From NCBI RefSeq assembly GCF_053078305.1, contig NZ_CP166879.1: 64,000 nt of DNA, one strand, 5' to 3'. The notes under the pieces are model-generated. The model saw only the letters and a list, made by a program, of their open reading frames with translations. It was not told the origin of the DNA and ran no database searches. Position numbers and translations under genes: made by a program. Position 1 is the first letter of the stretch, and each line of letters starts with the position of its first letter. Positions 28,682 to 46,204 of this stretch are shown piece by piece.

Positions 28682-29191
28682 GTGGCTACGCAGACTGAAG
28701 TTGCCAGGCATTTAAGTCTGACCGATCGCCAGCTTCGCAGATTGCAGAAATTGCCGGGTGCCCCGATATCGAATAAGCGAGGGCAACTGGATCTGGATGC
28801 CTGGCGCGATTTTTACATATCGTATCTGAGAAGAAGTAAAAACGATGTGCCTGATGGCGATAGCGAAGACGACTATGAGGAGAAATTGCTTATTGCCAGA
28901 TGGGAACTGACAGCAGAACAGGCTGTTACACAGCAGTTAAAAAATGAGGTGTCAAAAGGAAAACTTATTGACACCGGGTTCTGTATTTTTGCCCTCAGCA
29001 AGCTGGCAATGGCGTTATCCAGTACGCTTGATTCCATCCCTTTATCCATGCAGCGACAGTTTCCTGATTTAACACCGCGCCATCTTGACCATCTGAAAAC
29101 CCTTATTGCGAAGGGGGCAAATCAGTGTGCGCGGGCGGGGGATAAATTACCGGATTTACTCGATGAATATATCAGAGCAACAACTGAATAA
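28682..29191 (+). CDS. Terminase small subunit (Nu1-like)
   Basis: ...FCIFALSKLAMALSSTLDSIPLSMQRQFPDL... resembles lambda Nu1. Confidence 0.8.
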   Translation: MATQTEVARHLSLTDRQLRRLQKLPGAPISNKRGQLDLDAWRDFYISYLRRSKNDVPDGDSEDDYEEKLLIARWELTAEQAVTQQLKNEVSKGKLIDTGFCIFALSKLAMALSSTLDSIPLSMQRQFPDLTPRHLDHLKTLIAKGANQCARAGDKLPDLLDEYIRATTE

Positions 29192-31091
29192 TATGATGAG
29201 CGCTGTCACAACAGCATTACAGCCCCTGATAAGGGCATTGCCGGTGACGCCAGTTGAATGGGCTGATCAAAATTATTATCTGCCTAAAGAATCTTCATAT
29301 GGTGAGGGAGAATGGAAAACGCTGCCGTTCCAGATCGCCATCATGAACAGCATGGGGAATGATCAGATCCGGACTGTTAATCTGATTAAATCTGCCCGTG
29401 TTGGCTATACAAAGATGTTGCTGGGAGTCGCCGGGTATTTTATTGAGCATAAATCCCGAAACAGTCTGCTTTTTCAGCCCACGGATTCTGCCGCTGAAGA
29501 TTTTATGAAGTCTCACGTGGAGGCGACGATTCGCGATGTTCCCTGCCTGAAAAAACTTTCTCCCTGGCTGGGACGTAAACATCGTGATAATACCATCACG
29601 CTGAAACGCTTTTCATCGGGTGTGGGTTTCTGGTGCCTGGGTGGTGCGGCAGCAAAAAACTACCGTGAAAAATCCGTGGATGTGGTCTGCTATGACGAGC
29701 TTTCCTCGTTCGAGCCGGATGTTGAAAAAGAGGGCTCGCCAACCCTGCTGGGGGATAAGCGTATTGAGGGCTCGGTATGGCCAAAATCCATTCGCGGCTC
29801 GACGCCAAAAATAAAAGGTTCCTGCCAGATCGAAAAAGCGGCCAACGAGTCGGCGCATTTTATGCGTTTTTATGTGCCCTGCCCACACTGCGGGGAGGAG
29901 CAGTATCTGAAATTTGGCGATGAGTCCACGCCTTTTGGCCTTAAATGGGAGAAGGACAGCCCCGAAAGCGTTTTCTACCTCTGTGAACATCATGGCTGCG
30001 TGATCCATCAGTCTGAGCTTGACCAGAGCAACGGGCGGTGGATCTGTGAAAACACGGGGATGTGGACCCGTGATGGTCTGACGTTTTTCAGCGCTGCGGG
30101 TAATGAAATTCCACCGCCGCGCTCCATCACGTTCCACATCTGGACGGCGTACAGTCCGTTCACCACCTGGGTACAGATAGTCTATGACTGGCTGGATGCA
30201 CTGAAAGATCCCAACGGCGTGAAAACCTTTGTGAACACCACGCTGGGCGAGACCTGGGAAGAGGCCGTGGGCGAAAAACTCGATCACCAGGTGCTGATGG
30301 ATAAGGTTGTGCGTTACACAGCGGCGGTGCCTGCCCGGGTGGTTTATCTGACGGCGGGTATTGACTCGCAGCGAAACCGTTTTGAGATGTATGTCTGGGG
30401 ATGGGCTCCGGGAGAGGAAGCCTTTCTGGTGGATAAAATCATCATTATGGGGCGTCCCGATGAGGAAGAGACGCTGTTACGTGTGGATGCGGCGATCAAC
30501 AAAAAATACCGCCATGCAGACGGAACCGAAATGACCATTTCCCGTGTCTGCTGGGACACAGGGGGGATCGATGGCGAAATTGTCTATCAGAGGTCAAAAA
30601 AACACGGTGTTTTCCGGGTGCTGCCGGTAAAAGGTGCATCTGTTTATGGCAAGCCGGTGATCACCATGCCAAAAACCCGCAATCAGCGGGGCGTGTATCT
30701 GTGCGAAGTGGGGACGGACACCGCAAAAGAAATTCTCTATGCCCGTATGAAAGCCGATCCCACGCCTGCGGATGAAGCCACGTCGTATGCCATCCGTTTT
30801 CCTGATGATCCGGAGATTTTTTCGCAGACAGAGGCGCAGCAACTGGTGGCGGAAGAGCTTGTGGAGAAGTGGGAAAAAGGAAAGATGCGTCTGCTGTGGG
30901 ATAACAAAAAGCGGCGTAACGAAGCGCTGGACTGCCTGGTGTATGCCTACGCGGCATTACGTGTGTCCGTGCAACGCTGGCAGCTTGATCTGGCTGTACT
31001 GGCAAAATCCCGGGAAGAAGAGACGACCCGGCCAACCCTTAAAGAACTGGCAGCGAAGCTGTCCGGAGGAGTGAATGGTTACAGTCGCTGA
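29163..31091 (+). CDS. Terminase large subunit (gpA-like)
   Basis: MNISEQQLN...VEWADQNYYLPKES... collinear with lambda gpA. Confidence 0.85.
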   Translation: MNISEQQLNNMMSAVTTALQPLIRALPVTPVEWADQNYYLPKESSYGEGEWKTLPFQIAIMNSMGNDQIRTVNLIKSARVGYTKMLLGVAGYFIEHKSRNSLLFQPTDSAAEDFMKSHVEATIRDVPCLKKLSPWLGRKHRDNTITLKRFSSGVGFWCLGGAAAKNYREKSVDVVCYDELSSFEPDVEKEGSPTLLGDKRIEGSVWPKSIRGSTPKIKGSCQIEKAANESAHFMRFYVPCPHCGEEQYLKFGDESTPFGLKWEKDSPESVFYLCEHHGCVIHQSELDQSNGRWICENTGMWTRDGLTFFSAAGNEIPPPRSITFHIWTAYSPFTTWVQIVYDWLDALKDPNGVKTFVNTTLGETWEEAVGEKLDHQVLMDKVVRYTAAVPARVVYLTAGIDSQRNRFEMYVWGWAPGEEAFLVDKIIIMGRPDEEETLLRVDAAINKKYRHADGTEMTISRVCWDTGGIDGEIVYQRSKKHGVFRVLPVKGASVYGKPVITMPKTRNQRGVYLCEVGTDTAKEILYARMKADPTPADEATSYAIRFPDDPEIFSQTEAQQLVAEELVEKWEKGKMRLLWDNKKRRNEALDCLVYAYAALRVSVQRWQLDLAVLAKSREEETTRPTLKELAAKLSGGVNGYSR

Positions 31092-31281
31092 ACTGCAGGC
31101 GCTGCGTCAGGCGCGCCTTGATTTATTAACCGGTAAACGGGTGGTGTCTGTCCAGAAAGATGGTCGCAGAATTGAATATACGGCGGCCTCTCTGGATGAG
31201 CTTAACCGTGCGATCAATGATGCTGAGTTGGTACTGGGGACAACCCGCCGTCGCCGTCGTCCGCTGGGAGTGAGGTTATGA
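31075..31281 (+). CDS. Head-tail joining protein (gpW-like)
   Basis: 68 aa; ...LTGKRVVSVQKDGRRIEYTAASL... Confidence 0.8.
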   Translation: MVTVAELQALRQARLDLLTGKRVVSVQKDGRRIEYTAASLDELNRAINDAELVLGTTRRRRRPLGVRL

Positions 31282-32150
31282 AACGAACGCCTGTCCTGAT
31301 TGATGTGAACGGCGTTCCGCTTCGGGAGAGCCTAAGCTACAACGGGGGCGGCGCAGGATTTGGCGGGCAAATGGCAGAGTGGTTGCCACCCTCGCAGAGT
31401 GCCGATGCGGCCCTGCTGCCCGCGTTGCGTCTGGGGAATGCCCGTGCAGATGATCTGGTGCGCAATAACGGAATAGCGGCCAATGCGGTGGCCCTGCATA
31501 AGGATCACATTGTCGGGCATATGTTTCTGATTAGCTACCGTCCGAACTGGCGCTGGCTGGGGATGCGGGAGACCGCGGCAAAAAGTTTTGTCGATGAGGT
31601 GGAGGCGGCCTGGTCAGAATACGCAGAAGGGATGTTTGGTGAGATCGACGTGGAAGGGAAACGCACGTTTACGGAATTTATCCGTGAAGGTGTGGGCGTT
31701 CATGCGTTTAACGGCGAAATCTTTGTGCAGCCGGTCTGGGATACGGAGAGCACGCAACTGTTTCGTACGCGTTTTAAAGCCGTGAGTCCGAAACGGGTGG
31801 ACACGCCAGGACACGGTATGGGGAACCGTTTTCTGCGGGCCGGTGTGGAGGTCGATCGATATGGTCGTGCCGTTGCGTACCATATCTGTGAGGATGATTT
31901 TCCTCACTCCGGGAGTGGACGATGGGAACGGATCCCGCGTGAACTTCTCACCGGGCGTCCGGCCATGCTGCATATTTTCGAGCCGGTGGAGGACGGGCAG
32001 ACCCGTGGGGCCAATCAGTTTTACAGCGTCATGGAACGGCTGAAGATGCTCGATTCCCTGCAGGCAACACAGCTTCAGTCGGCCATTGTTAAAGCCATTT
32101 ATGTCTATCATCTCCCCGTAGTTGTCCGCATCGTTCGCCAACTCCACTGA
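31278..32150 (+). pseudogene. Portal protein (gpB-like), N-terminal ~275 codons, interrupted near 32102
   Basis: Portal homology stops at ...QSAIVKAIY; the last 16 codons are read-through into inserted DNA. Confidence 0.75.
32091..32103 (+). repeat. Left att core AAAGCCATTTATG
   Basis: Direct repeat of 43930-43942 (one mismatch). Confidence 0.5.
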
Positions 32151-32225
32151 AACCCTTGCTGCGGCTGGAATGTCGTTTTCCATACTTTTGATGACCGTTC
32201 ATCACACTTCCAGGTTTTCGCGGTT

Positions 32226-32285
32226 TTGTGTATTGCAATGTGTATTGCAAATTGGCGATCGGGATGGGTGTGTATTGCAAATCTC
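32226..32285 (+). repeat. Three TGTGTATTGCAA repeats (putative integrase arm sites)
   Basis: Same motif occurs twice at 43838-43862 near the other junction. Confidence 0.4.
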
Positions 32286-32298
32286 TTGAGGGCTGTTA

Positions 32299-33540
32299 AT
32301 GGCTATTGAAAACAAACTCAGTGACAAACTGTTAAAGAGTCTTGTCGGAAAACGGCAGGACAAACAAAAAACAATAGCGGATGGGCGCGGGTTGTCTGTG
32401 CGTGTAAGCATGGTTGGGGGGATCAGCTTTGTTTTTTACTATCGTCTTGGTGGCAGGGAATCCCCTCCGGTATGGCTTACACTTGGGCGCTATCCTGATA
32501 TGTCTCTTGCAACAGCCAGGCGCATGCGTGATCAGTGCCGTGAGTGGCTGGCTGAAAATCTGGACCCCCGCAGGCAAATAAAACTTGCCGCCGAAAAAAC
32601 CATGCAACCAGTGACCGTAAGGGATGCGCTGTTTTACTGGTACGACAATCACGCCACAACAGCCAGAAAAGAGCATGAATATTTAATAAAACGATTTGAA
32701 AAGCATATCTTCCCCTATATCGGTGATATGGCTATAGAACAGTGCAAATTACACACATGGCTTGCCGTCTTTGACAGGATCAAAAAAAATGCGCCTGTTA
32801 TGTCTGGTGCAATTTTTCTTGATATCAAACAGGCGTTGCGTTTTTGTCGCGTCAGGCAATACATCGCGTGCGATCCCTTTGGCGATATTAACGTAAGTTA
32901 TGTCGGGCGCTCATCCGGTATAAGGGATCGCGTTCTTAATATCAATGAAACAGCGGATGTATGGTCTTATGCTTACGGTAATAATTTGCTGACACTGTCA
33001 TCAATACATAACAGAAGAATAATGGTTATCTGCCTGGTGTTTGGTTGCCGTCAGCAGGAGGCGAGGTTATCCACATGGGACGAATGGGATTTAAAAAACT
33101 GGGTATGGACAGTCCCAAAAGAGCACAGCAAAAACAAGGAGGCCATAGTAAGGCCTGTTCCTGACGGCATAAAACAATGGCTCGTTAATCTTTACGCAGA
33201 AACAAAAAATCGCGGTTATGTTGTCGGTTGTGCTTTGCAAAGGGCGACAATAACAGGGGCTGCAAACAGAATATGCAGGCGTCTTGGTCATGATATTAAT
33301 GGCTTGTGGTGCATACATGATTTCAGGCGCACATTTTCCACTGCGCTTAATGATATGGGGGCGGATCCTTATATTGTCGAACTTCTTTTAGGTCATAAAG
33401 TGAAAGGGGTTGCCGGTGTTTACAATAAAAGCAGGCATATAAAGAAAAAACTTGAGGTGCTTAATATGTGGGTTAATTACCTTAATACGATAGCAGGATT
33501 TAACAACAACGTTATCGAGCTTAATAAAGAGGTGGTGTGA
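32299..33540 (+). CDS. int: P4-type tyrosine integrase
   Basis: 413 aa; N-terminal LSDKLLKSL...GRGLSVRV arm-binding domain; C-terminal ...LLGHK...VYNKS. Confidence 0.85.
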   Translation: MAIENKLSDKLLKSLVGKRQDKQKTIADGRGLSVRVSMVGGISFVFYYRLGGRESPPVWLTLGRYPDMSLATARRMRDQCREWLAENLDPRRQIKLAAEKTMQPVTVRDALFYWYDNHATTARKEHEYLIKRFEKHIFPYIGDMAIEQCKLHTWLAVFDRIKKNAPVMSGAIFLDIKQALRFCRVRQYIACDPFGDINVSYVGRSSGIRDRVLNINETADVWSYAYGNNLLTLSSIHNRRIMVICLVFGCRQQEARLSTWDEWDLKNWVWTVPKEHSKNKEAIVRPVPDGIKQWLVNLYAETKNRGYVVGCALQRATITGAANRICRRLGHDINGLWCIHDFRRTFSTALNDMGADPYIVELLLGHKVKGVAGVYNKSRHIKKKLEVLNMWVNYLNTIAGFNNNVIELNKEVV

Positions 33541-33541
33541 T

Positions 33542-33799
33542 ATGGCAATTTATTCTCTTGTTGATGAAAACGATTTGCGCACAATGAAGGACATTGATCG
33601 GTTCATTCGTGAAAAAGAGTGCATAGCACTTACCACGCTGGCAAACTCAACACGCTGGAAAATGGAGCAGGCAGGTAAATTCCCGCGACGTATCAAGATC
33701 GGTGAACGTGCGGCAGGGTATCGACTTTCAGAGGTTCAGGCATGGATCCGTGGTGAGTGGCATCCTGGATGGAAACCTGGAAAAACAAAACAGCAATAA
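33542..33799 (+). CDS. alpA: AlpA-family regulator / excisionase
   Basis: 85 aa; directly after int. Confidence 0.7.
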   Translation: MAIYSLVDENDLRTMKDIDRFIREKECIALTTLANSTRWKMEQAGKFPRRIKIGERAAGYRLSEVQAWIRGEWHPGWKPGKTKQQ

Positions 33800-34432: not shown

Positions 34433-34895
34433 CCACACGCGGTGCTGATTATACGGTACATCGTGTTAACCGAGAAGCTACCCACCAGCAAGGCAAAATC
34501 TTCTGCTAAAAAATGACATATGGCCAGTCGTCCGGAAAGCATGAAATTTTACAAAAATGGAAAATGAAGATTTTTATTGTGCTGGTGGGTAAAAACAAAA
34601 AGCGCCCCGTTGCCGGAGCGCCCTTGTGAACAATTAACCTGCTGCGAAAAAATTGGATCAGTGCAGGGAAATTATATCAACTGTGTGAAGAAGCGCCACA
34701 ATTGCCAGTTTAGCTTTGCGGCGAACGCGTCAATAAAGAATATTCTTTCTTTAAATTCTGTTTGTGTATTTTTTCGTAGTTTTTCGTAGTTTTTCGTAAG
34801 GAGAAAGAGCGGCGCGTATGCACCGCTAAGGAGTTTATTTTCATGACTTATGCAGCTTTCAATCTTAGCACCGCCGTAGCTGGTGGACAAGGCTA

Positions 34896-35123
34896 TCAGC
34901 CAGGCGGTCGGTTTTTAGTGGCTTTTAACCGCCGTGGGTATTTCTCGACAAAATCTTCAAGGGCAAATTTTTCTGGTGGCACTAAGCGCGGCGCTGGTGG
35001 TGGTATTTTTGTTCTGGTTAGTTCTTCCTCAAGTCTGGCGCAGGCTTCTAACTGCCTTTGCCGGATGATTTCATCATCTTGCGTTTGCGTGTCTTGTATT
35101 GGTGATAGTGTGTTGTTGGTCAT
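34896..35123 (-). CDS. Hypothetical protein
   Basis: 75 aa ORF downstream of putative repressor; weak. Confidence 0.3.
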   Translation of the reverse strand: MTNNTLSPIQDTQTQDDEIIRQRQLEACARLEEELTRTKIPPPAPRLVPPEKFALEDFVEKYPRRLKATKNRPPG

Positions 35124-35180
35124 GATACTGCCCTGTAAAGCAATGCGCCGGAGTACCTCACGCCACGGCGCTGATAGTGA

Positions 35181-35501
35181 TTATTCTGATTCTTGGGTCT
35201 TGCGACGCTGGAGTTCTTCGCGTGCAACGGTGACAAGTTGCCCGATTTCTTCCGCTGCTTTGATGCCGATTTGTTCGACCTTAGCCAGAGCATCCAGTGA
35301 AGACACAAGGGGATTTTCTCCGCTGCCTTCTGCCTGGCGGCGGGCGATTTCACCGCGCATGGCGGTTACTATGAATCCGGCGTTGCTTTCACCGTCCAGT
35401 TTTACGGATTCCATGCCTTCAATAACATCATGCGGGATCCGAGCTGTCAGTGATTGTGATTTTGCGTTTTTTGAACCTGTAGCCATCTGTAATCCTCTCA
35501 A
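35181..35501 (-). CDS. Putative satellite regulator/repressor
   Basis: 106 aa, divergent from operator-like region. Confidence 0.4.
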   Translation of the reverse strand: MRGLQMATGSKNAKSQSLTARIPHDVIEGMESVKLDGESNAGFIVTAMRGEIARRQAEGSGENPLVSSLDALAKVEQIGIKAAEEIGQLVTVAREELQRRKTQESE

Positions 35502-35683
35502 TGAAAGTGTAAGACAATATACACATAAAAAGTCTTACATAAAAGCATTGACATGTAAGCCACCTATAAATAAAGTTACTTACACCTTGTTAATGCAAGG
35601 TGCAGAAACGACGAAACCCGGCAGTGCGCTAACACTAACCGGGCTTCTAACCACCAACGATAGAAAGCGTATCGAGGTAGCTA
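35502..35683. promoter_or_regulatory. Divergent control region with palindromic TGTAAGAC/GTCTTACA operators
   Basis: tgtaagacaatatacacataaaaagtcttaca and ttgacatgtaagcc...agttacttacac. Confidence 0.4.
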
Positions 35684-36045
35684 TGAGAAATCATACCACA
35701 CACCCGCAAGGGCGGGACTCGCACAACCTGAATAAATACATCTGGCGTTTTCTGGCCCGAAAAAACCAGTTGATCGCCAGTGTCGAAAATAGCTATGATT
35801 CCCGCGCACCTCATAAAACGGGTGCCGGGATTGGCGTCCTGGGCAAAACTGAAGCGCATAACACGCGCCCCGCGTGTTTTTTTGTGCCGCATAGTCACAC
35901 CTTATCAATGGTGGGCTGTACGGGGGCGGAGCAATCCGCGCCGGTTTCTTCAGTGTCCGGTTACGCCAACCCTGTACAGTCCGCCACCAGCGAAATTGGC
36001 GTTTCCGGTGGCGGTTATCTTAACCACACTGAGGAGGCTGCCAAC
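35684..36045 (+). promoter_or_regulatory. Structured leader with terminator hairpin; homologue of rha leader at 6632-6930
   Basis: Conserved blocks plus hairpin ACACGCGccccGCGTGT followed by U7. Confidence 0.45.
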
Positions 36046-36237
36046 ATGGCTACTATCCCTACCCTTGTACATTCTCAAACCGCCTTTCTCTGGCGCTTTA
36101 TCATCTTTGGCGCGTCAGACCATCAAATCATCCACGTCACCGCCTGGACGGAACGCGAAGCGCGTAGCCGTTGCCCGTCCGGTTGTGTTGCTGTATTCGC
36201 CGCCCGTATTCGTCAGGAGGTGTGCCATGTGCAATAA
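36046..36237 (+). CDS. Small ORF sharing its first seven codons (MATIPTL) with rha
   Basis: GAGGAGG RBS; 63 aa; N-terminal nucleotides identical to rha start. Confidence 0.3.
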   Translation: MATIPTLVHSQTAFLWRFIIFGASDHQIIHVTAWTEREARSRCPSGCVAVFAARIRQEVCHVQ

Positions 36238-37218: not shown

Positions 37219-38624
37219 AACTGGCACCGAACGTAAAACGATTACCGAAAGATAAATACACCGAAGCGGTTATTTTTGCGGGTATTGATGCTCACTCATT
37301 CGCAGAGCATTACATCATTGCACAGGCCAAAAAAGCAGGCGATCCAGTCCCTCCCGTTTATCTGGGGCGTTATCAGTTAAGCGAACTGGATAACCTCCAG
37401 ATTGTTGATGATGGGCGATACAGGGCGACGGTGATACGCGCCGGAAATATTGAAGAGCCGCAGCTGTTAACCATCGCCACGAAACTGGCGAGCGCCGGAG
37501 TCCAGGAGGCGCGGCTACTTTCTGAAAATTTCGAATTGCTGGAGGAATGGAGCGACCAGCTTCCACGGCTTAGGGAGGCATGGGAACGCGGGGAAAGCCT
37601 GGTCATGAAAAAAATTCCCCAGCGAAAAACCACGCTACCGATGAGCGTTGGATCTACCGGATACGACACACAGCTTGATTACGTGGTAAAGGGGATTATT
37701 CCGGCATCGTCGCTTTGCAGCATATACGGGGCGAGCGGTTCCTATAAATCATTCCTTGCCGGATCGTGGGCGTGTCACGTTTCCACGGGCCGCCAGTGGG
37801 GAGGCCGCAGGGTGGCGCATGGCGCTGTTCTCTATGTGGTTGGTGAAGGCGGTATCGGCGTTCCGCGTCGTGTAAAAGCCTGGGAGGTTGTGCACGGTGA
37901 GCAGGTGAAAAATCTGTATCTGGTAAACCGTCCCATCTTTCCGGCTGTCCCGCTTGATGTTGATGAACTGGTTATTGCTGCCAGTCAGGTGGAGAGGGAA
38001 ACGGGTAAACCTGTTCGCATGATTATTCTGGACACGCTGGCGCGTTGCTTTGGCGGCAATGATGAAAATGACTCCCGCGACATGGGGGCATTTATCCGTG
38101 GTTGTGACGAGCTTAAACGGCGCACAGGGGCTACGGTGCTGGTGGTTCACCATTCCGGCAAGGATGAAACAAAGGGGGCGCGTGGTTCCAGTGCATTTCG
38201 TGCATCACTGGACGCTGAATACCGGATACGCAGGGAGGACGCAGGAAGCGAAGCGCTGGTTATCTCATGCACCAAAATGAAGGACGCGGAGGAACTCAAA
38301 GAGGCTGCCTATGATTTGCGGGTGGTGGAGCTTTTTACCGACGCTGACGGGGAGTTAATTACGTCGCTGGTGGTGGTGGATAAGCCGCGCCCTCCCGTTG
38401 AACTGGAGCGCATCGAGGAGGCAGGCAACAAGACGGAAAACCATACCGCGCTATGGGGGTGCATCCGTTCACGCACACAGAACGGCGACAAGTGCACGAT
38501 CCCGCTGTTACGTGACGATATGAAAAAGCTGGGGTATGACACAAAACACCTTAAACGATGGTTAGCCAAACTGGAAAAAGACGACGTGATCTACATTGAC
38601 GGTGATGATGTAGGACCACTGTAA
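37215..38624 (+). CDS. Replicative ATPase/helicase (RecA/DnaB-like NTPase domain)
   Basis: 469 aa; Walker A GASGSYKS, Walker B ILDTL, ...VVHHSGKDETKGARGSSA... Confidence 0.75.
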   Translation: MKLAPNVKRLPKDKYTEAVIFAGIDAHSFAEHYIIAQAKKAGDPVPPVYLGRYQLSELDNLQIVDDGRYRATVIRAGNIEEPQLLTIATKLASAGVQEARLLSENFELLEEWSDQLPRLREAWERGESLVMKKIPQRKTTLPMSVGSTGYDTQLDYVVKGIIPASSLCSIYGASGSYKSFLAGSWACHVSTGRQWGGRRVAHGAVLYVVGEGGIGVPRRVKAWEVVHGEQVKNLYLVNRPIFPAVPLDVDELVIAASQVERETGKPVRMIILDTLARCFGGNDENDSRDMGAFIRGCDELKRRTGATVLVVHHSGKDETKGARGSSAFRASLDAEYRIRREDAGSEALVISCTKMKDAEELKEAAYDLRVVELFTDADGELITSLVVVDKPRPPVELERIEEAGNKTENHTALWGCIRSRTQNGDKCTIPLLRDDMKKLGYDTKHLKRWLAKLEKDDVIYIDGDDVGPL

Positions 38625-38826
38625 AAAGTGGGCATTAAAAGTGGGAAAGGTGGGCGATTTAACGTAATTTTAACAAAATCACCCACTTTCCCACGTGTAT
38701 ATATCCCAAAAAGTGGGCACTAAAAAAATACCTATGAAACAAGATGATATAAATCCCAAACTTCCCACGTTGGACGAAGTGGGAAAACGTAAAAAGTGGG
38801 CGAAAAAAGTGGGTAGAGGTGGGCGA
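38625..38826 (+). repeat. Iteron array (AAGTGGG-type repeats), putative satellite ori
   Basis: About nine AAGTGGG / CCCACTT copies immediately downstream of helicase gene. Confidence 0.5.
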
Positions 38827-39774: not shown

Positions 39775-39846
39775 GCCGGAGAAATCCGGCTTTTTTGTAC
39801 CCAAAAAAAGCCCGATAAGTACAGGAGGCATCTTATCGGGCTTTTG
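39775..39846 (+). terminator. Two tandem intrinsic terminators ending the replication operon
   Basis: GCCGGAGAAATCCGGC+U6 and GCCCGATAAG...CTTATCGGGC+U4. Confidence 0.5.
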
Positions 39847-41628: not shown

Positions 41629-42042
41629 ATGGCAACGAATGAAAGCATCATGGCGCTACCGCTGGCGAGTAAATTTAAAGCAGAAGCGCGGGCAATGGCT
41701 GACAGAGGTTTATCAACCTACGAGGCCGTATATCAACTCAACAAACTGGAAGAGCAGGACAAGCCGCGCGCTGATGCGATTATGGCGCTTCATGAACATA
41801 ACGACTATCAGCCGCTGTTACGTGCAATGGCAAACGTGCCATGTATTAGCGTCGATAATGCTCGTGAAATCCTGAACATGACCATAGAGCAGGAGCGCCC
41901 AAAGGTTGCGCCGGAGCTTACCGCAGCCTTTGAAAACTTTATGGACATGCACAGCCCGAAAGCCGTATCACCCGGCATGGCATACGACGGCAGAAACCAG
42001 GGCGATGAAGGCGACGTCGATCGCATACTGAAAACCATCTGA
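41629..42042 (+). CDS. Scaffold-like protein (Nu3-like C-terminus)
   Basis: C-terminus ...AAFENFMDMHSPKAV... parallels prophage C/Nu3 tail ...ALFEHFMANHSPAAV... Confidence 0.5.
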   Translation: MATNESIMALPLASKFKAEARAMADRGLSTYEAVYQLNKLEEQDKPRADAIMALHEHNDYQPLLRAMANVPCISVDNAREILNMTIEQERPKVAPELTAAFENFMDMHSPKAVSPGMAYDGRNQGDEGDVDRILKTI

Positions 42043-42072
42043 CATAAGGCCGGAGAAATCCGGCTTTTTTTA

Positions 42073-42150
42073 CGGGTCCTTTCCGGCATATGGACCCGTT
42101 ACGGGGCGGCGACCTCGCGGTTTTTCGCTATTTATGAGCTTTTTTCGGGT
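42073..42150 (+). other. Satellite cos site (cosN 42104-42115)
   Basis: About 48 bp identical to prophage cos (GGGTCCTTTCCGGCATATGGACCCGTTACGGGGCGGCGACCTCGCGG), then divergent. Confidence 0.65.
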
Positions 42151-42236: not shown

Positions 42237-42791
42237 GTGGGGATATTGATGAAATCGCACCTGATGAACAAAAAAAACATGGCGCAAAGCTGCCGTGTAA
42301 GTGCGACAGCGTTCGACAAGTGGGGAGTGACTCCCGTTGAACGTAAAGGACGCGAGGCTTTTTACGATGTTGCCAGCGTGATAGACAATCGGGTAAGCAA
42401 TGCAATTAACCAGGTTACAAACGACAAAGGCGAGATTGATGATGATGAACTCTTACGAGTCAGGATCAGATTACTGACCGCCCAGGCTGAGGCGCAGGAA
42501 CTTAAAAACGAGCGCGATCGCGGTGACGTAATTGATACTGAGTTTTGCCTGTACGCGCTTTCAAAGCTGGCGAGTCAGATTTCTTCAATCATGGACAGTT
42601 TGCCGCTTACCATGCAAAGGCGCTTCCCGCAGATTACTCCCGCTATGCTGGATGGGCTTAAAAGGGAAGTGGTTAAAGCCTGTAATGCCAGTGCCACAGT
42701 TGCCGACAACCTCCCGAAGATACTGGCTGATTACCTGATGGAAACTACCGGAGACGTACCGGAGAAGTTGCTACAGAAGAAAGGCGAGTAA
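42237..42791 (+). CDS. Terminase small subunit homolog (Nu1-like; possible packaging redirector)
   Basis: ...FCLYALSKLASQISSIMDSLPLTMQRRFPQI... parallels Nu1. Confidence 0.65.
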   Translation: MGILMKSHLMNKKNMAQSCRVSATAFDKWGVTPVERKGREAFYDVASVIDNRVSNAINQVTNDKGEIDDDELLRVRIRLLTAQAEAQELKNERDRGDVIDTEFCLYALSKLASQISSIMDSLPLTMQRRFPQITPAMLDGLKREVVKACNASATVADNLPKILADYLMETTGDVPEKLLQKKGE

Positions 42792-42959
42792 CAGACGCGC
42801 AATTATTGAACAAAAGTAAGGCCCGACATGAAATCACCCAAAAATGCCTTTTTCATGCGTTTGTATGTCTGACCTTTTACGGTTTCGATATTATAAAAAA
42901 CAAATAGTTACGCTCGAGAGGTACCGACACGCATTTTTCAGGAAAATTTTCATAAACAG

Positions 42960-43020
42960 ATAAAAACCGCGAGGTCGCCGCCCCGTAACGGGCCATAATT
43001 CCAGGAAGGACCCGACGACA
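42960..43020 (-). other. Second, inverted cos-like site (cosN complement 42972-42983)
   Basis: Minus strand reads CCCGTTACGGGGCGGCGACCTCGCGG...TTTATGAAAATTTTCC. Confidence 0.5.
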
Positions 43021-43329: not shown

Positions 43330-43929
43330 CTTGCTGATATTCCCGATAACGCAAAATTGCGCTCTGTCCTAACCCGTTGATATTTTCGGGAACAGCCAAC
43401 GGCTGAGGCCGGAACAACGATTATCTTTCAGATAGTCAGAGCTACGAAATTTTCGTAGTTTAATTACTCGCCAGTTTATCGTTAACTCGTTGATATTTTC
43501 GGTAACCTCAATTTGAGGAGATCGGAAACATAACCCTTCACATTCTGAATGGTTATAATGACCACTCAGACCATCAAGGCAACCATAACGAACATCGTTA
43601 CGGTTGGAGCTTTTACCCCACTGGGGGGAAGGTGCACATCTGGATCATCATTACCGTGATCAAGGGTATGTAAAACCCACCAGCCTGATTAACTGTTAAC
43701 CGGAAAAAAGCCAGGTAGCCAATCTCGATATGGGGATCCCCATATCGACATTAACGCCCCCTAGAACTGCGCATATCTGCATATAAAAACATCCACCAGC
43801 TTTATGACGGATGCCGCTCATCTGATAAATAATCGTGTATTGCAATGTGTATTGCGACTCCTTTAAACGATAGGTTTGAGCATTCGTAATGTACTGTTTT
43901 TAAATTTTATTTTTTCCTGTCTTTTCATA

Positions 43930-43942
43930 AAAGCCATGTATG
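43930..43942 (+). repeat. Right att core AAAGCCATGTATG
   Basis: Direct repeat of 32091-32103. Confidence 0.5.
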
Positions 43943-44709
43943 CAGCGACGATTGAAAGTGAACTTGATACCGAAAAGGCCTTTGAATATATCGCCGGTGC
44001 GCCGCAGGGGCAGAAGGATAATCCGCTTATTAATATTCTGGATAAGTTCTCCACCTGGTATGACACGAATATCGTGACGCTGGGCGGTGTCAAAATTCCG
44101 CACCTTTTCCCCGGTGATGATCTGAAACTTCAGACCGCGCAGGATTCAGACAATGGATTTTCGGCGCTTGAACAGGCGCTGCTGCGGTATATCGCCGCCG
44201 GTCTTGGCGTTTCCTACGAACAGTTGTCCCGTGATTACTCGAAGGTCAGTTATTCAAGTGCCCGCGCCTCCGCCAATGAGTCGTGGCGCTATTTTATGGG
44301 ACGACGAAAATTTATTGCAGCCCGGCTGGCCACGCAGATGTTTTCCTGCTGGCTGGAAGAGGCACTTCTTCGGGGGATTATCCGTCCGCCACGGGCACGT
44401 TTTGATTTTTATCAGGCGCGTTCAGCCTGGTCGCGGGCAGAGTGGATTGGCGCAGGAAGAATGGCCATTGACGGGCTCAAGGAGGTCCAGGAATCAGTGA
44501 TGCGCATTGAGGCCGGACTGAGCACGTATGAGAAAGAGCTGGCGCTGATGGGTGAGGATTATCAGGACATTTTCCGCCAGCAGGTCAGGGAATCCGCAGA
44601 GCGGGAAAAAGCCGGACTCTCACGTCCGGTGTGGATAGCGCAGGCGTATCAGCAGCAGATAGCAGAGAGCCGCAGGCCGGAAGAGGAGACAACACCACGT
44701 GAGACGTAA
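43930..44709 (+). pseudogene. Portal protein (gpB-like), C-terminal ~256 codons
   Basis: Resumes at ...AATIESELDTEKAFEYIAGAPQGQ...; the tracked ORF start at 43876 lies in inserted DNA. Confidence 0.75.
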
Positions 44710-46204
44710 TCTTTCACACATTATTGCCGCAGCATTCAATGAACCGCTGCTTCTGGAGCCCGCCTATGCGCGGGTTTTCTTTTGCGCGCTCGGGCGCGAG
44801 ATGGGGGCAGCAAGTCTTTCGTTACCACAACAGCAGGTACAGCTTGATGCTCCCGGGATGCTGGCTGAAACGGACGAGTACATGGCCGGAGGTAAACGAC
44901 CGGCCCGTGTTTACCGGGTGGTGAACGGTATTGCGGTACTGCCGGTGACCGGCACGCTGGTGCACCGGCTGGGTGGTATGCGGCCATTTTCCGGAATGAC
45001 AGGCTATGACGGCATTGTTGCCTGTCTTCAGCAGGCAATGGCGGACACCTCTGTCCGGGGCGTACTGCTGGATATTGACAGTCCGGGCGGGCAGGCCGCC
45101 GGTGCGTTTGACTGCGCTGACATGATTTACCGCCTCCGGCAGCAGAAGCCGGTCTGGGCACTGTGTAATGACACGGCCTGTTCTGCGGCCATGCTGCTGG
45201 CGTCGGCCTGCTCCCGACGGCTGGTTACCCAGACATCCCGTATCGGCTCCATTGGCGTGATGATGGGCCATGTCAGCTATGCCGGTCATCTGGCGCAGGC
45301 CGGAGTGGATATCACGCTGATTTATGCCGGGGCGCATAAGGTGGATGGCAATCAGTTTGAAGCGTTGCCGTCAGAGGTTCGCCAGGACATGCAGCAGCGG
45401 ATTGATGCGGCGCGCCGGATGTTTGCCGAAAAAGTGGCGATGTATACGGGGCTGTCTGTGGAAGCTGTCACGGGGACAGAGGCTGCCGTTTTTGAAGGTC
45501 AGTCCGGTATTGAAGCCGGGCTGGCGGATGAATTAATCAATGCGTCGGATGCCATCAGTGTGATGGCTGCGGCGTTGAACACACATGATACAGGAGGCAC
45601 TATGCCGCAATTAACTGCAACGGAAGCCGCCGCGCAGGAGAACCAGCGAGTGATGGGGATCCTGACGTGTCAGGAAGCGAAAGGACGTGAACAGCTTGCC
45701 ACGATGCTGGCAGGACAACAGGGCATGAGCGTTGAACAGGCCCGGGCGATTCTGGCCGCGGCGGCACCACAGCAGCCGGTGGCATCCGCGCAGAGTGAAG
45801 CCGATCGCATTATGGCGTGTGAAGAAGCTAAAGGTCGTGAACAACTGGCGGCAACGCTGGCGGCGATGCCGGATATGACGGTGGAAAAAGCCCGCCCGAT
45901 CCTGGCGGCTTCACCGCAGGTGGATGCCGGCCCCTCACTCCGTGATCAGATTATGGCTCTGGATGAGGCAAAAGGGGCTGAGGCGCAGGCTGAACAGCTG
46001 GCTGCCTGCCCGGGAATGACAGTGGAGAGCGCCCGGGCTGTGCTGGCTGCGGGATCAGGTAAGGCAGAACCGGTTTCTGCATCAACAACCGCCCTGTTTG
46101 AACATTTCATGGCGAACCATTCACCGGCAGCCGTGCAGGGTGGCGTGTCACAGACGTCGGCAGACGGTGATGCGGACGTGAAAATGCTCATGGCCATGCC
46201 ATGA
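44699..46204 (+). CDS. Head protease/scaffold (gpC with in-frame Nu3-like C-terminus)
   Basis: S49-type peptidase region ...DIDSPGGQAAG...; three ~36-aa tandem repeats near C-terminus. Confidence 0.8.
   Translation: MRRNLSHIIAAAFNEPLLLEPAYARVFFCALGREMGAASLSLPQQQVQLDAPGMLAETDEYMAGGKRPARVYRVVNGIAVLPVTGTLVHRLGGMRPFSGMTGYDGIVACLQQAMADTSVRGVLLDIDSPGGQAAGAFDCADMIYRLRQQKPVWALCNDTACSAAMLLASACSRRLVTQTSRIGSIGVMMGHVSYAGHLAQAGVDITLIYAGAHKVDGNQFEALPSEVRQDMQQRIDAARRMFAEKVAMYTGLSVEAVTGTEAAVFEGQSGIEAGLADELINASDAISVMAAALNTHDTGGTMPQLTATEAAAQENQRVMGILTCQEAKGREQLATMLAGQQGMSVEQARAILAAAAPQQPVASAQSEADRIMACEEAKGREQLAATLAAMPDMTVEKARPILAASPQVDAGPSLRDQIMALDEAKGAEAQAEQLAACPGMTVESARAVLAAGSGKAEPVSASTTALFEHFMANHSPAAVQGGVSQTSADGDADVKMLMAMP

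What the first reader, a model, noticed from the sequence alone, without database searches (positions are those of the whole stretch)
32226..32285. TGTGTATTGCAA repeats at both satellite ends (second set 43838-43862)
Three copies are near the left junction and two near the right; this is the expected layout of integrase arm-type binding sites and independently marks the element boundaries.
Basis: seen in the sequence. Interest (0 to 1): 0.4.

Follow-up and report, generated by a model that had tools for sequence, protein, structure and literature searches.

The report
Integrase arm repeats of embedded satellite
The repeated word TGTGTATTGCAA at both ends of a phage satellite that sits inside its helper phage's portal gene is real, conserved and most likely the docking site for the satellite's integrase, but this exact motif was already published in 2023.

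Summary
There are three exact TGTGTATTGCAA copies at 32227-32280 and two one-mismatch copies at 43834-43857, all on the + strand. All five carry the 8-bp core TGTATTGC.

They lie in the two arms of the attachment site of an 11.8-kb satellite inserted in, and co-oriented with, a lambda-like portal gene. The 8-bp crossover core AAAGCCAT is at 32091-98 and 43930-37, and joining there restores a 530-aa portal ORF.

The tandem 12-bp pair sits 128 bp inside the left core and 72 bp inside the right core. The satellite integrase has an N-terminal arm DNA-binding domain (PF13356).

The motif is the only invariant block in both arms across integrases down to about 51% identity, and it stays invariant when the target site changes. 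It was present in 76 of 76 related loci.

Related integrases have the same architecture with other words: phage P4 (annotated arm repeats) and hpt satellites (GGTGTATCACT).

Integrase arm-type sites are the best reading (about 0.78). AlpA binding is not excluded.

This is already known. Tommasini, Mageeney and Williams 2023 (PMC10111431) described these helper-embedded satellites, this doubled motif and its spacing, and left the binding protein open. Interest is low.

The parts
32227..32250 (+). Left (int-proximal) doubled motif: two head-to-tail 12-bp units, TGTGTATTGCAA TGTGTATTGCAA
   Evidence: Exact copies. They start 128 bp after the attL core. This is the invariant block in a 7-way alignment of left arms. 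Present in 76 of 76 related loci.
32269..32280 (+). Third, single copy of TGTGTATTGCAA, 18 bp after the pair and 18 bp before the int ATG
   Evidence: Exact. Kept at the same +30 spacing in relatives with at least 69% integrase identity while the 18-bp spacer diverges. Absent in the Citrobacter and Klebsiella site groups. In the capsid-site group an extra degenerate copy lies upstream of the pair instead.
43834..43857 (+). Right (int-distal) doubled motif: CGTGTATTGCAA TGTGTATTGCGA
   Evidence: One mismatch each, with the core TGTATTGC exact. Ends 72 bp before the attR core. This is the invariant block in a 6-way alignment of right arms.
32091..32098 (+). attL crossover core AAAGCCAT (left boundary of the satellite)
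   Evidence: 8-bp identity with attR. In E. coli SCEC020022 both cores read AAGGCGAT, following that helper's portal allele. The reconstructed attP has CATAA / TTATG inverted repeats around a 7-bp AAGCCAT.
43930..43937 (+). attR crossover core AAAGCCAT (right boundary of the satellite)
   Evidence: Joining 31278-32098 to 43938-44709 gives an uninterrupted 530-aa portal ORF.
32299..33540 (+). Satellite tyrosine integrase, 413 aa, with an N-terminal arm DNA-binding domain
   Evidence: Pfam PF13356 (residues 7-94, E=4e-17), PF22022 and PF00589. The N-domain matches solved integrase N-domains 3JU0 and 3JTZ.
33542..33799 (+). AlpA-family protein (likely excision factor); the alternative candidate binder of the motif
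   Evidence: Pfam PF05930, E=5e-14. Co-inherited with int in all relatives.
32190..32203 (.). Conserved palindrome GATGAccgtTCATC in the left arm, 23 bp upstream of the doubled motif; candidate accessory-protein site
   Evidence: Retained in relatives with at least 69% integrase identity while neighbouring bases diverge. Function not tested.
31278..32098 (+). N-terminal part of the helper prophage portal gene (lambda B cognate), interrupted by the satellite
   Evidence: ORF and translation. Annotated as a partial phage portal protein in the E. coli counterpart. In-silico excision restores the ORF.
43938..44709 (+). C-terminal part of the helper portal gene

Best explanation
The repeats are most likely the arm-type binding sites of the attachment site of a helper-embedded satellite (HE-PICI).

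In the excised circle, attP reads in this order:
- a tandem pair of 12-bp units
- 72 bp of spacer
- the core, a 7-bp overlap AAGCCAT between CATAA and TTATG
- 128 bp of spacer
- a second tandem pair
- 18 bp of spacer
- a single copy
- 18 bp of spacer
- the int start codon

The proposed mechanism follows the lambda Int model. The satellite integrase binds two kinds of DNA. Its catalytic and core-binding domains bind the core in attP and in the phage portal gene. Its N-terminal arm-binding domain (PF13356) binds the TGTATTGC words. Four integrase protomers would then bridge four half-sites on two arms to the two cores and form the recombination complex.

After integration, one pair stays in attL and one in attR, which is why the word appears at both ends in one orientation. 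The copies next to the int start probably also let the integrase repress its own gene, as shown for KplE1 IntS and proposed for ICEMlSymR7A IntS.

Shown here: position, geometry, conservation, domain content and precise boundaries. Inferred: which protein binds, the stoichiometry and the autoregulation.
For: 1. The repeats sit on both arms, co-oriented, at fixed distances from the core. The gap is 127-128 bp on the left and 68-72 bp on the right in five elements at two different portal sites. The capsid-site and hpt elements have similar spacing.
2. The integrase has the PF13356 arm DNA-binding domain, with solved homologues 3JU0 and 3JTZ.
3. Phylogenetic footprint. 17 of 28 invariant columns in the left-arm alignment and 18 of 27 in the right-arm alignment fall in the doubled motif, against mean column identities of 58% and 54%.
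4. The motif was found in 76 of 76 related loci. Only one doubled copy was found outside an arm position.
5. The word stays invariant while the core changes: AAAGCCAT, ATTAAGGATTAT (a second portal site) and AACCCAAGCA (capsid gene). The integrase N-domain is more conserved (64-69%) than the rest of the protein (47-52%).
6. The motif follows the int-alpA module, not the cargo. Replication, capsid and terminase genes differ between carriers. About 3000 E. coli genomes hold satellites related in cargo whose similarity to this one stops at window positions 35020 and 43760, so their int region and right end differ.
7. Other integrases of the P4 group have the same architecture with other words. 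P4 has annotated 'attP arm sequence repeat' pairs TTGGGGGCATAA on both arms. hpt cf-PICIs have GGTGTATCACT or CGTGTATCAAT pairs on both arms.
8. ICEMlSymR7A IntS, which I recall as a P4-family integrase, has five putative arm motifs, TGKTGGTATC, all needed for integration. Its excision factor binds one separate 40-bp site (PMC11963761).
9. In KplE1, integrase arm sites overlap the int promoter and give autorepression (PMC2951348).
Against: - No binding experiment exists. The paper that first described the motif lists the integrase arm domain, AlpA or an unknown protein as possible binders.
- AlpA is inherited together with the integrase and splits into the same clades as the motif words, so covariation cannot separate the two candidates.
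- No IHF consensus was found in either arm, so how the arms would be bent to the core is not explained.
- No sigma-70 consensus promoter was found upstream of int, so the autoregulation step has no mapped promoter.
- The 12-bp unit spacing differs from the roughly 10-11 bp of lambda's adjacent arm sites (my recollection).
Confidence: 0.78

Rival explanations
1. The doubled motif is bound by the satellite's AlpA protein (excision factor and transcription regulator), not by the integrase. AlpA oligomers on both arms would shape the excision complex or control int transcription.
For: - AlpA (PF05930) is encoded next to int in every HE-PICI examined.
- AlpA is 58-70% conserved across site groups, and it diverges between the HE and hpt clades in step with the motif word.
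- Direct repeats about one helical turn apart are typical of excision-factor sites (abstract of PMC7498355, listed).
- The published description keeps this option open.
Against: - In the one characterised system read here (RdfS in ICEMlSymR7A), the excision factor binds a single region on one arm, distinct from the putative arm sites. In KplE1 the TorI sites on attL are likewise separate from the integrase arm sites. From my recollection, lambda Xis also binds one arm only. Here identical pairs lie on both arms.
- No further copies occur at internal promoters of the satellite, as would be expected for a regulator.
- In P4 the equivalent repeats are annotated as arm repeats, and I found no copies with fewer than 3 mismatches elsewhere in P4, including the region of the late promoters that Vis regulates according to my recollection.
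- The integrase has a dedicated arm-binding domain that would otherwise have no candidate site.
Confidence: 0.13
2. The repeats are operator or promoter elements for int expression only (the word contains TTGCAA, which resembles a -35 hexamer). The right-end copies would then be a by-product of att-site duplication or serve a second promoter.
For: - The left copies lie 18-72 bp upstream of the int ATG.
- TTGCAA matches TTGACA at 4 of 6 positions (read from the sequence).
- A weak promoter-like site at 43804-43833 abuts the right pair.
Against: - The consensus scan found no promoter upstream of int. The right-end hit is no more than the shuffles give (2 found, 1.6 expected).
- The distance from pair to ATG varies from 13 to 51 bp between groups, while the distance from pair to core is fixed. 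The constrained partner is therefore the core, not the gene start.
- The right pair is equally conserved although no satellite gene follows it.
Confidence: 0.05
3. The repeats are replication-origin iterons, packaging (cos) elements, or a chance or slippage duplication.
For: The units are tandem and short. The satellite does contain other iteron-like repeats and cos sites.
Against: - The motif is kept in elements with different replication proteins (RepA-like helicase versus D5-type primase) and different or absent small terminases.
- The cos sites and iteron-like repeats are elsewhere (42104-15, 42972-83, 38623-38808).
- Chance is excluded by the counts and by conservation.
Confidence: 0.02

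Closest known systems
Doubled motif tgTGTATTGCantgTGTATTGCa of helper-embedded PICIs (Tommasini, Mageeney and Williams 2023, NAR Genom Bioinform 5:lqad036, PMC10111431)
   Same: Same sequence, same tandem 12-bp doubling and the same two co-oriented copies flanking the attP centre. The paper gives 132 +/- 2 bp downstream, and I measure 132.5 bp from core centre to motif start. The element type also matches: integrated in and co-oriented with a lambda-like late gene, with an int-alpA module, a Bro-N zone with C4/isrK RNAs, a replication zone and captured late genes.
   Different: Nothing essential. The third single copy next to int in this portal-site subgroup is not mentioned in the paper's main text. 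For the upstream copy the paper gives 81 +/- 2 bp, whereas I measure 76.5 bp to the motif end and 99.5 bp to its start, so the reference points probably differ. The paper calls the motif unique to HE-PICIs. That holds for the word, but the architecture recurs in hpt cf-PICIs and in P4.
Phage P4 attP arm sequence repeats (annotated in NC_001609)
   Same: 12-bp units in head-to-tail pairs on both sides of the core, co-oriented with int. The proximal pair is 112 bp and the distal pair 53 bp from a 20-bp core, and an extra copy lies at the int start. The integrase has the same PF13356 + PF22022 + PF00589 architecture, and Vis is an AlpA-family protein.
   Different: The word is TTGGGGGCATAA, not TGTGTATTGCAA. 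The integrase is only 24-36% identical. P4 targets a chromosomal gene rather than a phage late gene. P4's extra copy is inverted, whereas here it is direct.
Arm-type sites of lambda Int (P1, P2, P'1-P'3), KplE1 IntS and ICEMlSymR7A IntS
   Same: Several short repeats lie on both arms of a roughly 250-300 bp attP, distinct from the core-type sites. The count is five with a 2+3 split, as in lambda (my recollection) and ICEMlSymR7A (five sites). The int-proximal sites overlap the int upstream region, which gives autorepression in KplE1.
   Different: Lambda Int uses a different N-domain family (my recollection). Here all copies are co-oriented and the pairs have a strict 12-bp spacing. No IHF consensus was found. 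No binding data exist for this element.

Membership tests
Arm-type integrase-binding sites (heterobivalent tyrosine integrase attP) | Repeats lie in both arms of attP, outside the crossover core | tested here: met
   The core is at 32091-98 and 43930-37. The repeats lie 128-189 bp inside the left core and 72-95 bp inside the right core. The boundaries are validated by restoring a 530-aa portal ORF.
Arm-type integrase-binding sites (heterobivalent tyrosine integrase attP) | Sequence differs from the core-type sites | tested here: met
   The reconstructed attP core is CATAA-AAGCCAT-TTATG. The arm word is TGTATTGC.
Arm-type integrase-binding sites (heterobivalent tyrosine integrase attP) | The cognate integrase has a separate N-terminal arm-binding domain | tested here: met
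   PF13356 Arm-DNA-bind_3, residues 7-94, E=4e-17. PDB 3JU0 and 3JTZ N-domains match.
Arm-type integrase-binding sites (heterobivalent tyrosine integrase attP) | Sites are conserved with the integrase lineage and independent of cargo | tested here: met
   76 of 76 loci. The motif is the invariant block in the arm alignments. Cargo differs between carriers.
Arm-type integrase-binding sites (heterobivalent tyrosine integrase attP) | Direct binding by the integrase N-domain, and a requirement for recombination | not testable with these tools
   This needs a gel shift or footprint and attP mutagenesis. The literature found leaves the binder open.
HE-PICI doubled motif (Tommasini et al. 2023) | Sequence tgTGTATTGCantgTGTATTGCa | tested here: met
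   TGTGTATTGCAATGTGTATTGCAA on the left and CGTGTATTGCAATGTGTATTGCGA on the right, compared with the paper's text.
HE-PICI doubled motif (Tommasini et al. 2023) | Two co-oriented copies at fixed distances from the attP centre (about 81 bp upstream, about 132 bp downstream) | tested here: met
   132.5 bp downstream, to the motif start. Upstream, 76.5 bp to the motif end and 99.5 bp to its start, so the paper's reference point is uncertain.
HE-PICI doubled motif (Tommasini et al. 2023) | [quoted passage not shown] | tested here: met
   The portal gene is split at codon 274. Terminase and gpW lie upstream and the S49 protease downstream, all on the + strand.
Phage P4 attP arm repeats | 12-bp units in tandem pairs on both arms, co-oriented with int | tested here: met
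Phage P4 attP arm repeats | Repeat word TTGGGGGCATAA | tested here: not met
   The word here is TGTGTATTGCAA. This is the same architecture but not the same site family.
Excision-factor (Xis/AlpA-type) binding sites | Clustered on one arm only, which gives directionality | tested here: not met
   Identical pairs lie on both arms. In ICEMlSymR7A the excision factor binds one 40-bp region.
Excision-factor (Xis/AlpA-type) binding sites | Direct repeats about one helical turn apart | tested here: inconclusive
   The 12-bp head-to-tail spacing is compatible with this, but it is equally found in the annotated P4 arm repeats.
Replication iterons or cos sites | Co-inheritance with the replication or packaging module | tested here: not met
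   The motif is kept across different replication and terminase modules. The cos sites and iteron-like repeats lie elsewhere.

The most novel reading that the evidence does not exclude
The doubled word may not be simply an integrase arm site. It could be a platform used by AlpA, alone or together with the integrase N-domain, whose occupancy is set by helper late-operon read-through into int-alpA. That would tie satellite excision to helper late transcription and help explain why this integrase clade keeps retargeting phage late genes.

A milder version is that the fixed-geometry 12-bp tandem pair is a conserved chassis of the whole P4-like integrase group (P4, hpt cf-PICIs, HE-PICIs). Each subclade would have its own 8-bp word, which would allow the core specificity to change freely.
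Probability: 0.12. Interest if true: 0.45.

Novelty: already known. Interest (0 to 1): 0.2.

Why it matters
The finding correctly locates the recombination machinery of a satellite that lives inside its helper phage's portal gene. That arrangement delays helper portal expression until the satellite excises (abstract of PMC10111431). However, the element class, this exact motif and its spacing were published in 2023, so nothing new is opened.

- A conserved third copy lies next to int in the portal-site subgroup.
- The same tandem-pair architecture, with different words, occurs in hpt cf-PICIs and in phage P4. This strengthens the integrase arm-site reading over the AlpA reading.
- The integrase N-domain is more conserved than the rest of the protein across site groups, matching an invariant arm word and changing cores.

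The identity of the binding protein remains an open question that a bench experiment could settle.

Tried and rejected
- A scan of genome contigs with the single integrase found no relatives. Relatives were obtained instead through the protein database, contig look-ups and an alignment-based scan of viral contigs.
- The sigma-70 promoter scan upstream of int found nothing. The right-end hit is at background level, so no promoter claim is made.
- A search for the IHF consensus WATCAANNNNTTR, allowing one mismatch, found nothing in either arm.
- I tried to separate the integrase N-domain from AlpA as the binder by covariation. Both proteins split into the HE and hpt clades in the same way, so the test is uninformative.
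- A sixth TGTATTGC inside int (32856-63, - strand) was considered as a counterpart of P4's intragenic repeat. It is lost in four of the seven relatives checked, so it was rejected as a coding-sequence coincidence.
- Replication iterons, cos sites and slippage duplication were rejected because the motif follows only the int-alpA module.
- I looked for a fis-site PICI for comparison. The relatives retrieved all turned out to be hpt-site elements, so the paper's statement that fis PICIs lack the motif was not checked.

Full report
**Observation**

The word TGTGTATTGCAA occurs exactly at 32227-38, 32239-50 and 32269-80. It occurs with one mismatch at 43834-45 (CGTG...) and 43846-57 (...GCGA). All five copies are on the + strand, and the 8-bp core TGTATTGC is exact in all five.

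From base composition the window should hold 0.007 exact copies and 0.28 copies with at most one mismatch. It holds 3 and 5, and shuffles gave at most one.

**What the element is**

The repeats belong to an 11,839-bp insertion in a lambda-like portal gene.
- Upstream lie the terminase large subunit (29106-31091), a gpW-like gene and the first 273 codons of the portal gene.
- Downstream lie the rest of the portal gene (to 44709) and an S49 protease/scaffold gene.

Comparison with an E. coli counterpart in a different helper places the junctions at an 8-bp core, AAAGCCAT, at 32091-98 and 43930-37. In that E. coli locus both cores read AAGGCGAT, following the helper's own portal allele. Joining the window sequence at the core restores a 530-aa portal ORF that is 61% identical end to end to an intact 533-aa portal.

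The insertion encodes the following, all co-oriented with the helper late operon:
- integrase (PF13356 + PF22022 + PF00589)
- AlpA
- a Bro-N protein
- isrK/C4 RNAs
- a RepA-like helicase
- SSB
- a lambda E-like capsid protein
- a D-like decoration protein
- a Nu1-like small terminase

**Geometry**

In the reconstructed attP the order is: tandem pair, 72 bp, core, 128 bp, tandem pair, 18 bp, single copy, 18 bp, int ATG. The core is a 7-bp AAGCCAT between CATAA and TTATG. The repeats therefore bracket the element from inside rather than marking its ends.

Integrase homologues form a graded series.

| Source | Integrase identity | Target site | Left copies | Right copies |
|---|---|---|---|---|
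| Edwardsiella tarda | 88% | portal | 3 exact | 2 exact |
| Serratia (decayed remnant) | 76% | portal | 3 | right end lost |
| Metagenome contig | 69% | portal | 3 | 2 |
| Citrobacter | 55% | second portal site, core ATTAAGGATTAT | 2 | 2 |
| Klebsiella | 51% | ClpP-type protease-capsid fusion gene | 2 | 2 |
| E. coli | 53% | capsid gene, core AACCCAAGCA | tandem pair plus a degenerate extra copy | pair |

In the Edwardsiella element the spacers and flanks have diverged while the repeats are exact.

In multiple alignments of the arms, the motif accounts for 17 of 28 invariant columns on the left and 18 of 27 on the right. Mean column identities are 58% and 54%.

In 80 IMG/VR loci found with an integrase alignment:
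- all 76 with at least 200 bp upstream of int carry TGTATTGC-N4-TGTATTGC within 200 bp of int;
- 43 also show the right-hand pair about 10-10.8 kb downstream;
- only one doubled copy lies elsewhere.

The 4-nt linkers vary. The 8-bp words do not.

**What the motif tracks**

The replication, capsid and terminase modules differ among carriers. About 3000 E. coli genomes hold satellites related in cargo whose similarity to this one stops at window positions 35020 and 43760, so their int region and right end differ. The motif therefore follows the int-alpA module.

Across site groups the integrase N-domain is 64-69% identical, against 47-52% for the rest of the protein. This fits an invariant arm word and changing cores. 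AlpA is also conserved (58-70%) and splits into the same clades, so covariation cannot exclude it as the binder.

**Comparison with relatives outside the clade**
- hpt-site cf-PICIs (integrase 45% identical) carry their own 12-bp tandem pair, CGGTGTATCACT twice or CGTGTATCAAT twice. It sits just upstream of int and again near the hpt-side junction, with similar spacing of 135 and 63 bp.
- The GenBank record for phage P4 annotates 12-bp 'attP arm sequence repeat' features as tandem pairs on both sides of the core (TTGGGGGCATAA type, at 112 and 53 bp) plus a copy at the int start. P4 Int has the same three-domain architecture, and P4 Vis is an AlpA-family protein.
- ICEMlSymR7A IntS has five putative arm motifs, TGKTGGTATC, all required for integration. 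Its excision factor binds one separate 40-bp region, and IntS is proposed to repress its own gene (PMC11963761).
- In KplE1, integrase arm sites overlap the int promoter and give autorepression (PMC2951348).

These parallels favour the integrase arm domain as the binder. They also suggest that the copies next to int give autoregulation.

**Prior art**

The element class and the motif are published. Tommasini, Mageeney and Williams (NAR Genom Bioinform 2023, PMC10111431) describe helper-embedded PICIs at 14 sites in lambda-like late genes. They report the doubled motif tgTGTATTGCantgTGTATTGCa in two co-oriented copies, 81 +/- 2 bp upstream and 132 +/- 2 bp downstream of the attP centre. They suggest binding by the arm domains of an integrase tetramer, by AlpA or by an unknown protein. 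My measurement of 132.5 bp downstream agrees with theirs.

**Weak points**
- No binding data exist.
- No IHF consensus was found in the arms.
- No consensus promoter was found upstream of int.
- The promoter-like site abutting the right pair is at background level.

**Verdict**

The novelty class is already known, and interest is low.

Three small additions go beyond the paper's main text:
- the conserved third copy in this portal-site subgroup;
- the recurrence of the architecture, with other words, in hpt cf-PICIs and P4;
- the greater conservation of the N-domain compared with the rest of the integrase.

Noticed in passing
window 42073-42144 and 42943-43014 (cosN 12-mers at 42104-15 + and 42972-83 -); helper cos at 28487-98: The satellite carries two lambda-type cos sites (exact GGGCGGCGACCT) in inverted orientation. 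They sit inside 72-nt inverted-repeat arms that flank its Nu1-like small terminase gene (42237-42791). The helper has its own cos upstream of Nu1. A locus with a 100% identical integrase (L015) has the same pair, while the E. coli relative L001 has only the direct copy. The paper's main text does not mention this.
   Followed up: partly
window 35806-35882 and 35904-35991 (+): Rfam isrK (66 bits) and C4 antisense RNA (77.6 bits) hits, which are the P4 CI/seqA-type immunity RNA pair. The 464-aa ORF at 34843-36237 that overlaps them is probably spurious. This is known for some HE-PICIs, according to the paper.
   Followed up: partly
window 38623-38808: Three copies of AAAAAGTGGGCAYTAAAA, 83-85 bp apart, start at the end of the RepA-like helicase gene. 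They are a likely replication-origin iteron set.
   Followed up: no
window 32190-32203: The palindrome GATGAccgtTCATC lies in the left att arm, 23 bp upstream of the doubled motif. It is kept in relatives with at least 69% integrase identity while its surroundings diverge. It is a candidate site for AlpA or another accessory protein.
   Followed up: partly
window 43721-43752: A near-perfect 16+16 palindrome (15 of 16 positions pair), AATCTCGATATGGGGA/TCCCCATATCGACATT, lies about 80 bp upstream of the right doubled motif. It is nearly conserved in the E. coli counterpart (one substitution). Function unknown.
   Followed up: no
window 39775-39796 and 42049-42070: An exact 22-nt duplicate, GCCGGAGAAATCCGGCTTTTTT (a terminator-like hairpin plus T run), occurs at two module boundaries in the satellite.
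   Followed up: no
window 34757-34798; 43370-43414 and 43483-43527: A 10-bp tandem repeat, TTTTTCGTAG, lies in the Bro zone. Separately, a pair of 45-nt direct repeats (73% identical) lies in the non-coding stretch after the last satellite ORF. Neither is explained.
   Followed up: no
window 41629-42042 versus 44699-46204: The C-terminus of the satellite 137-aa ORF (FENFMDMHSPKAVSPG...GDVDRILKTI) resembles the C-terminus of the helper protease/scaffold protein (FEHFMANHSPAAVQGG...GDADVKMLMAMP). This suggests a captured Nu3-like scaffold segment next to the satellite's own capsid and decoration genes.
   Followed up: no
L010/L011 (E. coli GDSC2239PM), L095, L096: cf-PICIs at the hpt site have their own 12-bp tandem pair (GGTGTATCACT or CGTGTATCAAT). 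In L010/L011 it is seen on both att arms with HE-PICI-like spacing. For L095 and L096 only the int-proximal arm was examined. The doubled-repeat architecture is therefore not unique to HE-PICIs; only the word is.
   Followed up: yes
L056, about 2.98 kb upstream of int: This is the one doubled motif found outside the expected arm positions among the 80 related loci. It may be the end of a second or tandem element.
   Followed up: no
window 19758-20009: A tRNA-Met, tRNA-Arg(TCG), tRNA-Arg(TCT) cluster lies in the helper prophage upstream of the late region.
   Followed up: no
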